From: a virus
Lineage: Duplodnaviria; Heunggongvirae; Uroviricota; Caudoviricetes
Strand: one strand, 5' to 3'
Length of the DNA: 32,272 nt
Virus record (IMG/VR): IMGVR_UViG_2737471827_000002
Coordinates: 1 to 32,272 of that record
Below are positions 26,203 through 26,910 of this stretch, in pieces. The notes beneath the pieces were generated by a model, which was not told the DNA's origin, made no database searches, and was given only the letters and a program-made list of their open reading frames with translations. Within the stretch, counting starts at the first letter, position 1; each line of letters starts with the position of its first letter. The translations under genes were made by a program, and so were the position numbers.

Positions 26203-26562
26203 TCACTCTCCTTTGATGCCAATGTTTACAGCCTGGCAAGCCTCTTTGAGCACCCAGTCAACAGCGTCTTTCCATGCTCCGGTTTCGACTGGCGGATTTT
26301 CACGCTTAACCTGTTCATAGAAGCGCACTGCTTTAATCAATCCTTCTGGTGTCAGTGGCACAGGCGGGGCAGTGAATAACGCCTGAATTTCATAGTTCGG
26401 CCTGTCGTTACAATCCTCTTTTGTCGGTACATATTTCCAGTCACCAACCCACATCTTCTCCTGAAAGTCCGTAACGCCTTTTTTCACGTAGCGATATCGC
26501 CATGCCACTGGTTTTGCCTGCCCTGCCTTTTCATGCCCTTCCTGATAATTAATCTCGCTCAT
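26203..26562 (-). CDS. Hypothetical protein (119 aa)
   Basis: Start overlaps stop of upstream small gene (ATGA); ends in the conserved junction motif. Confidence 0.6.
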   Translation of the reverse strand: MSEINYQEGHEKAGQAKPVAWRYRYVKKGVTDFQEKMWVGDWKYVPTKEDCNDRPNYEIQALFTAPPVPLTPEGLIKAVRFYEQVKRENPPVETGAWKDAVDWVLKEACQAVNIGIKGE

Positions 26563-26735
26563 TCATCGCCCCACTCATCACAATATGCTTCGACCGGAGT
26601 TTTTCCTGCTTCATAATCATCACGCCATGCTTCAGCATCAGCAGCACTGCCACCACGTAACTCTGCATAGTCCATTAACAGTTCATGCCATTCTTCAAAA
26701 CTGACGTTGTATTTAGTTGAACCAAAATCAGCCAT
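26559..26735 (-). CDS. Small acidic protein (58 aa), not in ORF track
   Basis: Manual translation MADFGSTKYNVSFEEWHELLMDYAELRGGSAADAEAWRDDYEAGKTPVEAYCDEWGDE; SD AAGAGGAAG upstream; stop overlaps next start. Confidence 0.55.
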   Translation of the reverse strand: MADFGSTKYNVSFEEWHELLMDYAELRGGSAADAEAWRDDYEAGKTPVEAYCDEWGDE

Positions 26736-26910
26736 TTTGTTCTTCCTCTTCGTCTTTTATTTCGTGATATGAGTAATTGCAGTAGTTAAAGAAAATATCT
26801 TTTGCTTCGTCATATATTTCATCAGGCGTCGCATCATCATCCACTTCGAATTCATCCTCGAAATCTCCACCGGCTATTCCCGTTTCAATAATTATTTTAA
26901 ACTTTCGCAT
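26728..26910 (-). CDS. Small highly acidic protein (60 aa)
   Basis: About one third Asp/Glu residues; overlaps the start of the next small gene. Confidence 0.45.
   Translation of the reverse strand: MRKFKIIIETGIAGGDFEDEFEVDDDATPDEIYDEAKDIFFNYCNYSYHEIKDEEEEQNG

What the first reader, a model, noticed from the sequence alone, without database searches (positions are those of the whole stretch)
26559..26910. Two adjacent very acidic small proteins in the early/nin region (possible DNA mimics or anti-defence proteins)
A 60-aa ORF with about one third Asp/Glu and a 58-aa acidic ORF (found only by manual translation, below the track cutoff) lie in a chain of translationally coupled early genes. 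Small highly acidic early phage proteins are frequently DNA-mimic inhibitors of restriction or other host defences.
Basis: inference. Interest (0 to 1): 0.5.

Follow-up and report, generated by a model that had tools for sequence, protein, structure and literature searches.

The report
Two small acidic prophage accessory proteins
Two tiny, very acidic genes in the early region of an E. coli lambda-like prophage are real and conserved, belong to two unrelated families of unknown function that also occur in other phages and (one of them) in conjugative plasmids, and are reasonable but unproven candidates for inhibitors of host proteins.

Summary
ORF A (26728-26910, minus strand, 60 aa, 33% Asp/Glu) and ORF B (26559-26735, minus strand, 58 aa, 28% Asp/Glu) are the two most acidic of 42 ORFs in this lambdoid prophage. 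They lie between the replication genes and the RusA/Q region. Both are real genes: dN/dS is 0.09-0.3, and homologues exist down to 40-50% identity.

A belongs to Pfam DUF7167. B belongs to an unnamed family (PHROG 519). The two are unrelated: A is predicted as a beta-hairpin plus helix with an acidic tail, B as a three-helix bundle. They are not obligate partners, because they separate in Citrobacter, Klebsiella and Enterobacter prophages.

The A-B DNA is in 1909 of 5426 complete E. coli genomes. B also occurs in lytic Ackermannviridae and in 554 plasmids, about 410 of them near-identical copies seen in IncI2 plasmids. A also occurs in Klebsiella and Enterococcus phages. Acidity is conserved across both families.

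Neither protein resembles any solved structure or any catalogued anti-defence protein I could check, and no paper mentions them. Anti-defence or host-protein inhibition is plausible from charge, position and distribution across mobile elements. Classical B-DNA mimicry has no support. These are ordinary uncharacterised accessory genes, and B is a fair candidate for testing.

The parts
26728..26910 (-). ORF A: 60-aa acidic protein of Pfam family DUF7167 / PHROG 1997. Predicted beta-hairpin (residues 2-8, 17-23), a helix (29-43) with a conserved acidic exposed face, and a poly-Glu tail.
26559..26735 (-). ORF B: 58-aa acidic protein of an unnamed family (PHROG 519). Predicted three-helix bundle (13-27, 34-42, 47-55). 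Family consensus SFEEW..L..A..GGS..D..AWR.DYDAG.TP..AW.DEW.
26917..26939 (-). Translation-initiation region of A. Shine-Dalgarno AGGAGG (26934-26939) is followed directly by the hairpin GCCGCCC-GAAA-GGGCGGU (26917-26934). The ATG lies 6 nt after the hairpin.
   Evidence: It travels with gene A in E. coli loci whose upstream sequence differs. Two C-to-U variants keep pairing as G.U.
26203..26562 (-). Context: downstream coupled gene (ATGA overlap with B). 119-aa protein with an Ead/Ea22-like C-terminal region (PHROG 660).
25709..26200 (-). Context: Mom-like / XF1762-family gene, a putative DNA-modification function. Likely GTG start 2 nt after the preceding stop.
   Evidence: The start codon was read from the sequence.

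Best explanation
A and B are two unrelated, independently mobile accessory genes of lambdoid prophages, transcribed with the early-right operon. Each most likely makes a small, stably folded, strongly negative protein. I propose that each acts alone by binding and blocking a host protein whose normal partner is nucleic acid, that is, as an electrostatic decoy. A defence nuclease or sensor is the most plausible class of target, but not the only one. They are not Ocr- or ArdA-type mimics of a stretch of B-form DNA, and they do not form a two-component system.

Shown here: the genes are real and under purifying selection. Acidity is a conserved family property. The folds are small and have no known relatives. 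The two genes occur apart. Both families cross phage lineages, and B also crosses into conjugative plasmids.

Inferred: the binding mode, the target and the benefit to the phage.
For: - Real genes: dN/dS 0.09-0.31, with family matches.
- Confident small folds: pLDDT 88 for A and 87 for B.
- Conserved charge: every member of both alignments is acidic, and at least 13 columns in A and 8 in B are 70% or more Asp/Glu. In A the exposed face of the helix (positions 30, 31, 34, 35, 38) is acidic, while positions 32, 36, 39 and 40 are conserved and hydrophobic.
- Most acidic ORFs of the phage.
- Accessory hot-spot context: a Mom-like gene two genes downstream and an N6/N4 methylase elsewhere in the window. 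Dam, a 656-aa DNA methylase, DndB-like and ParB-like genes lie next to homologues.
- Independence: the A-B order is constant in 81 near-identical loci, but Citrobacter and Klebsiella A homologues are followed by unrelated ORFs. A 64%-identical A homologue (P0044) is followed by an unrelated 243-aa ORF. Enterobacter B is preceded by an Ead/Ea22 gene rather than A.
- Breadth: the A-B DNA is in 1909 of 5426 complete E. coli genomes. B is in Ackermannviridae, in a 111-kb phage that shares its NADAR gene with T5-size phages, in an Autographiviridae phage, and in 554 plasmids of which 516 are conjugative. A is in Guernseyvirinae, Enterococcus Herelleviridae, P22-like and P. aeruginosa prophages.
Against: - No homology or fold similarity to any characterised inhibitor.
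- No experimental record found.
- Part of the conserved acidity in A (D25, D26, T28, E31) fits a helix N-cap and may be structural rather than functional. This is my inference.
- In IncI2 plasmids B lies about 16 kb from mobC and the relaxase. It sits just past repA, next to SPFH/NfeD genes, and not among recognised leading-region anti-defence genes.
- Many small phage proteins are acidic for unrelated reasons.
Confidence: 0.35

Rival explanations
1. Host-takeover factors with a non-defence target. A and/or B bind a housekeeping nucleic-acid-binding protein, for example a nucleoid protein such as H-NS, RNA polymerase, or a replication or repair factor. The effect would be to tune host physiology during lytic growth or plasmid establishment.
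For: The features that support the best explanation fit equally well: conserved negative charge, small folds and early expression. A is found in phages of both Gram-negative and Gram-positive hosts. B is found in plasmid backbones next to replication and maintenance genes. This breadth fits a conserved housekeeping target better than a patchy defence system.
Against: The genes are dispensable and patchily distributed even among close lambdoid relatives. That is more typical of arms-race cargo. No partner is known.
Confidence: 0.25
2. Phage-internal helpers. A and/or B modulate a phage-encoded enzyme, for example a recombination or replication protein. Their neighbours hint at the partner.
For: In Guernseyvirinae the stop of A overlaps the start of a PD-(D/E)XK/DUF2800 nuclease, which is followed by a single-strand annealing protein. 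In a P22-like prophage A lies in arf-erf-ssb-x-dam-A-hot. In the window both genes follow the replication module.
Against: The neighbourhood is not conserved. The Enterococcus 'exonuclease' next to A is really a DUF3850/ASCH protein. Neighbours differ in E. coli, Citrobacter, Klebsiella and Pseudomonas. B sits in plasmids and in lytic phages that have unrelated replication systems.
Confidence: 0.15
3. Classical DNA mimics. The carboxylates copy the phosphate pattern of B-form DNA and plug the DNA-binding groove of type I restriction enzymes or similar, as Ocr and ArdA do.
For: Very high Asp/Glu content and pI about 4, conserved across both families. The A helix has a continuous acidic face.
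Against: Only about 45-55 ordered residues per chain. No fold or sequence similarity to any solved structure, known mimics included. In B the best-conserved residues are aromatic and hydrophobic (F13, W16, W37, Y41, G44, P47) rather than acidic.
Confidence: 0.08

Closest known systems
Pfam DUF7167 (PF23768) / PHROG 1997
   Same: ORF A is a full-length member: 54.2 bits against a cut-off of 24.4, covering residues 2-53 of 60. RefSeq already labels it 'DUF7167 family protein'.
   Different: The family has no assigned function, so membership explains nothing about mechanism.
PHROG 519 (unknown function)
   Same: ORF B matches at E 4.5e-23 over its whole length. Homologues include CBA120 orf183, phiKDA1 gp26 and the conserved IncI2 backbone protein WP_000753050.
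   Different: B aligns only to profile columns 76-137 of 143, so some members carry extra N-terminal sequence. There is no Pfam or NCBIfam model and no function.
T7 Ocr and ArdA (DNA-mimic anti-restriction proteins)
   Same: Small, early-expressed, about 30% Asp/Glu, carried by phages and, for ArdA, by conjugative plasmids. This comparison rests on general knowledge and on PMC11322646.
   Different: No sequence or fold similarity. A and B are about half the size or less, and nothing shows a DNA-like shape or dimerisation.
TifA (Orf65 of Enterococcus phage phi47), inhibitor of type IV restriction enzymes
   Same: A small acidic phage protein (21% acidic) with an electronegative surface. It binds a defence nuclease directly without resembling DNA (PMC11322646). 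This is the mode of action I consider most likely for A and B.
   Different: TifA is described as SH3-like. A is a beta-hairpin plus helix and B is all-helical.
Ead/Ea22 and 'ea'/nin accessory genes of lambdoid and P22-like phages
   Same: Same genomic slots, either between P and ninB or between exo/erf and xis. They are often directly next to an Ead/Ea22-like gene and share its C-terminal ..IKGE junction.
   Different: A and B are not homologous to Ead/Ea22. They are separate small cassettes that shuffle among these genes.

Membership tests
Pfam DUF7167 (ORF A) | Score above the Pfam gathering threshold over the full domain | tested here: met
   54.2 bits against 24.4, residues 2-53, profile positions 1-60 of 60. 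Precomputed PF23768 on most homologues.
PHROG 519 (ORF B) | Significant profile match | tested here: met
   E 4.5e-23, residues 1-58, profile columns 76-137 of 143.
DNA-mimic proteins (Ocr, ArdA, Gam, gp5.9, Arn, Ugi, p56) | Strong net negative charge | tested here: met
   Net -15 and -12, pI 4.05. Conserved across both families.
DNA-mimic proteins (Ocr, ArdA, Gam, gp5.9, Arn, Ugi, p56) | Sequence or fold relationship to a known mimic | tested here: not met
DNA-mimic proteins (Ocr, ArdA, Gam, gp5.9, Arn, Ugi, p56) | Surface carboxylates spaced like B-DNA phosphates, usually on an elongated dimer | not testable with these tools
Only the helical-face pattern could be read from the alignment.
DNA-mimic proteins (Ocr, ArdA, Gam, gp5.9, Arn, Ugi, p56) | Binds a DNA-binding protein in competition with DNA | not testable with these tools
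   Needs biochemistry.
Catalogued anti-defence proteins | Listed or homologous to a listed protein | tested here: not met
   No occurrence of the family name or of peptide strings in the supplements of the EVADES catalogue, two accessory-gene screens and the plasmid leading-region study. These were string searches only, not profile searches.
Plasmid leading-region anti-defence islands (for B) | Located in the first genes to enter the recipient, next to oriT and opposite the relaxase | tested here: inconclusive
   In IncI2 plasmid NZ_CP030156 B is at 15.2 kb and mobC/relaxase is at 31.9-36.5 kb. B lies just past repA, preceded by CaiF/GrlA and DUF1187 genes and followed by SPFH/NfeD genes. oriT is not annotated.
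Two-gene system (A with B) | Co-occurrence maintained in divergent lineages | tested here: not met
   The two are always adjacent in 81 loci where A is about 98% identical. They are separate in Citrobacter, Klebsiella and Enterobacter prophages, in lytic phages and in plasmids.

The most novel reading that the evidence does not exclude
B founds a new family of inhibitors shared across mobile elements. One small three-helix acidic protein would be used by temperate lambdoid phages, virulent Ackermannviridae and conjugative plasmids (including the IncI2 backbone seen here in an mcr-1 plasmid) to neutralise one widespread enterobacterial defence or DNA-processing protein. A (DUF7167) would be a second, independent inhibitor whose target is conserved from Enterobacteria to Enterococcus.
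Probability: 0.2. Interest if true: 0.6.

Novelty: new member of a known kind. Interest (0 to 1): 0.3.

Why it matters
If either protein blocks a defence system, it would add a new and very common counter-defence gene. The A-B DNA is in about a third of complete E. coli genomes. B is also part of the IncI2 plasmid backbone, seen here in an mcr-1 colistin-resistance plasmid, so it could bear on phage therapy host range and on plasmid spread. If not, these remain two of the many small acidic accessory genes of lambdoid phages, and the finding is ordinary.

Tried and rejected
- **Known families.** Pfam, NCBIfam and PADLOC gave nothing for B, and only the DUF for A.
- **Solved structures.** Sequence and fold searches found nothing specific.
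- **A and B as an obligate pair.** Rejected, because they separate at greater evolutionary distance.
- **A as a partner of an exonuclease.** This was suggested by annotations in Klebsiella and Enterococcus phages. I rejected it as a conserved association. The Enterococcus neighbour is a DUF3850/ASCH protein, and only Guernseyvirinae have a real PD-(D/E)XK nuclease next to A.
- **B as a helicase-associated (HA) domain.** This was suggested by multi-stretch hits to a repeat-rich helicase and to Flg_new repeat proteins. The similarity is confined to helix 1 (..FEEW..LL..), and B does not match the Pfam HA model, so I treat it as not established.
- **NADAR-B fusion as a functional clue.** It is present in only two phage records, while hundreds of NADAR genes lack it. 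It is too weak to use.
- **B in the plasmid leading region.** Inconclusive.
- **K-12 Rac genes ydaF/ydaG as equivalents of A and B.** RefSeq annotates ydaF as DUF1391 and ydaG as uncharacterised, with no DUF7167 label. I did not compare the sequences directly.
- **Terminator or known RNA in the spacer upstream of A.** No terminator-like site and no Rfam match.
- **Literature.** Searches by family name, by peptide string and in the supplements of four anti-defence or accessory-gene papers found nothing.

Full report
**Setting.** The window is an E. coli lambdoid prophage with nearly all genes on the minus strand. A leftward cI-like ORF lies at 31016-31417, and cro/cII-like ORFs at 30226-30907. 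Next come the replication genes (Phage_lambda_P at 28660-29325, and an O-like gene upstream), then DUF1627 and DUF977 proteins and a 118-aa zinc-ribbon protein. The two ORFs of the finding follow. After them come an Ead/Ea22-like gene, a Mom-like gene, more small genes, DUF968, RusA, an N6/N4 DNA methylase, lysis genes and structural genes.

**The observation.** ORF A (26728-26910, minus strand) encodes 60 aa, 20 of them Asp/Glu, with net charge -15. ORF B (26559-26735, minus strand) encodes 58 aa, 16 of them Asp/Glu, with net charge -12. Both have a calculated pI of 4.05. They are the two most acidic of 42 minus-strand ORFs in the window, where the median is 13% Asp/Glu and the sd is 5%. Gene A is also AT-rich, at 36% G+C against 51% for the window. 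A overlaps B by 8 nt (ATGGCTGA), and B overlaps the next gene by ATGA. A is not coupled to its upstream neighbour. A 95-nt spacer carries AGGAGG, then an 18-nt GC-rich GAAA hairpin, and then the ATG 6 nt later. No terminator-like site or Rfam family was found there.

**Are they real genes?** Yes.
- A matches Pfam DUF7167 at 54 bits against a cut-off of 24.4, and PHROG 1997.
- B has no Pfam or NCBIfam model. It matches PHROG 519. An exhaustive HMMER search of 1.8 billion cluster representatives gave 65 hits, mostly proteins of 50-65 aa at 40-60% identity.
- The B family consensus is SFEEW..L..A..GGS..D..AWR.DYDAG.TP..AW.DEW.
- The A family consensus is MRKFKV.IET...GG...E.FEVEDDAT.EEI..EAKDIF.N.CNYGY.EI followed by an acidic tail.
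- Codon comparisons give dN/dS of 0.09-0.31 where dS is measurable. In the remaining pairs synonymous sites are saturated while the protein is conserved.

**Structure.** AlphaFold2 with family alignments gives confident models.
- A has pLDDT 88: a beta-hairpin (residues 2-8 and 17-23), a helix (29-43), an ordered C-terminal segment without regular secondary structure, and a low-confidence acidic tail.
- B has pLDDT 87: a three-helix bundle (13-27, 34-42, 47-55).
- The two proteins are therefore unrelated.
- phmmer against PDB sequences finds nothing.

**Is the charge selected?** Every one of 46 A homologues has net charge -7 to -16 and pI at most 4.45. Every one of 32 B homologues has net charge -4 to -15. 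In A, thirteen or more columns are at least 70% Asp/Glu. Helix positions 30, 31, 34, 35 and 38 form a continuous acidic face, and positions 32, 36, 39 and 40 are conserved hydrophobic residues that should pack on the sheet. Part of the D25-D26-A-T28..E31 motif looks like a helix N-cap, so not all of the conserved acidity need be functional. That reading is my inference. In B the best-conserved residues are aromatic or structural (F13, W16, W37, Y41, G44, P47), and acidic columns surround them.

**Are A and B a pair?** In 81 related loci where A is about 98% identical, B always follows A, while the flanks vary. That is recent shared DNA. At greater distance the two separate:
- A 64%-identical A homologue (P0044, found only on short metagenomic contigs) is followed by an unrelated 243-aa ORF.
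- The Citrobacter A homologue (67% identity) is followed, in four different contexts, by an unrelated 59-aa ORF.
- The Klebsiella A homologue is followed by a Cys-rich 70-aa ORF.
- The Enterobacter B homologue (79% identity) is preceded by an Ead/Ea22 gene. It occurs both near xis/int and after O/P.

They are independent cassettes that happen to be adjacent in the common E. coli arrangement.

**Distribution.**
- The A-B DNA is present in 1909 of 5426 complete E. coli genomes, and 1750 of these carry at least 80% of the segment. RefSeq annotates it as 'DUF7167 family protein' plus 'hypothetical protein'.
- At least one of the 80-90%-identity copies lies in a decayed Qin-like cryptic prophage and has internal stops.
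- B is also found in virulent Ackermannviridae of Escherichia, Salmonella, Klebsiella, Shigella and Serratia, for example CBA120 orf183. It is in the 111-kb phage EP_H11, which shares its NADAR gene with T5-size phages, and in the Autographiviridae phage phiKDA1.
- B is in 554 plasmids, of which 516 are predicted conjugative. About 410 of these copies are 80-90% identical. Every copy at this identity level that I examined was on a plasmid of about 60 kb, and the one I opened is typed IncI2. There B sits just past repA in the order CaiF/GrlA regulator, DUF1187, B, SPFH, NfeD.
- More distant B copies are on an IncT plasmid and on large Klebsiella plasmids.
- A is also found in Klebsiella Guernseyvirinae, Enterococcus Herelleviridae, a P22-like prophage (arf-erf-ssb-x-dam-A-hot-x-xis-int) and a P. 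aeruginosa prophage.

**What the context says.** The slots where A and B occur are the variable 'ea' and nin accessory regions. Their neighbours include Ead/Ea22, DUF551, Dam, a large DNA methylase, DndB-like, ParB-like and HOT genes. In this window they include a Mom-like (XF1762 family) gene and, further downstream, an N6/N4 methylase. This fits cargo that deals with host barriers, but it is association only. Two more specific leads failed.
- The 'exonuclease' next to A in Enterococcus phages is a DUF3850/ASCH protein. Only Guernseyvirinae have a true PD-(D/E)XK nuclease beside A.
- The NADAR-B fusion in EP_H11 occurs in just two records.

In IncI2 plasmids B lies about 16 kb from mobC and the relaxase. 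I cannot place it in the leading region.

**Literature.** No paper in the library mentions DUF7167 or contains diagnostic peptide strings of either protein. The supplements of two accessory-gene screens, the plasmid leading-region study and the EVADES anti-defence catalogue contain no match. The IncI2 study that deleted the neighbouring CaiF/GrlA gene found little effect on fitness and did not address B. The TifA paper (PMC11322646) gives a precedent. TifA is a small acidic phage protein that inhibits a defence nuclease by direct binding without looking like DNA.

**Verdict.** The genes are real, conserved and very common. The best-supported reading is two unrelated small acidic accessory proteins that each act alone as binders of a host protein that handles nucleic acid. 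I give this about 0.35 confidence. A defence target is somewhat more likely than a housekeeping one. Classical B-DNA mimicry is unsupported at about 0.08. Nothing here is surprising to a phage biologist: both families are already catalogued as unknown-function families. B is nonetheless a sensible candidate for an anti-defence screen, because it spans temperate phages, lytic phages and conjugative plasmids.

Noticed in passing
window 25712-25726, 26206-26220, 27367-27381 (minus strand): A 15-nt junction motif, (C/G)GCATCAAAGGAGAG, ends three unrelated genes (Mom-like, Ead-like, DUF977) with the peptide ..I-K-G-E. It also supplies the AAGGAG Shine-Dalgarno of the next gene. None of 100 shuffles reached the observed 5 matches. 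The same ..GIGKGE stop junction precedes B in Enterobacter. It looks like a shared boundary sequence that could guide module exchange.
   Followed up: partly
window 26917-26939 (minus strand): The Shine-Dalgarno AGGAGG of gene A is separated from the ATG by a stable GC-rich GAAA-tetraloop hairpin plus 6 nt. Folding would bring the Shine-Dalgarno close to the start codon. The element travels with A when upstream sequence differs, and two C-to-U variants keep pairing as G.U.
   Followed up: partly
window 25709-26239 (minus strand): Mom-like / XF1762-family protein (NCBIfam 203 bits; PHROG 'Mom-like DNA modification protein'), two genes downstream of B. The real start is probably the GTG at 26200, 2 nt after the preceding stop, rather than the listed TTG.
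   Followed up: partly
window 18513-19574 (minus strand): A 353-aa N6/N4 DNA methyltransferase lies between the late-regulatory region and the lysis genes. It is a second DNA-modification function in the same prophage.
   Followed up: no
L100 2006-2662 (Escherichia phage EP_H11); also phage IME392: A 218-aa ORF fuses a NADAR domain (E 7e-27) to a C-terminal B-family domain that is 73% identical to ORF B. Hundreds of other phage NADAR genes lack this domain.
   Followed up: partly
L102 7348-9974 (IncI2 plasmid NZ_CP030156): The B homologue (88% identity) is part of the IncI2 backbone in the order CaiF/GrlA regulator, DUF1187, B, SPFH, NfeD, just past repA. The DUF1187 stop overlaps the B start by the same ATGGCTGA as in the phage, and a DUF1187-B fusion protein (P0145) exists.
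   Followed up: partly
L109 2083-3426 (E. coli NZ_CP062838): A copy of the A-B segment at about 90% identity lies in a decayed Qin-like cryptic prophage (dicB and ydfW nearby) and is annotated with internal stops and frameshifts. Some of the 436 records in the 80-90% identity band may therefore be pseudogenes.
   Followed up: no
window 27006-27419 (minus strand): The 137-aa ORF upstream of A probably starts at the ATG at 27362 (MEIKPEDE.., 118 aa), where the PHROG 1621 match begins. It has a weak zinc-ribbon match with CxxC spacing. It is present in some A-B loci and absent from others.
   Followed up: no
hit H5, PP818812.1: A record named Actinobacillus phage vB_Apl-pPE4 carries this segment at 95% nucleotide identity to E. 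coli prophages. That is unexpected for a Pasteurellaceae host and may reflect contamination or mis-assignment.
   Followed up: no
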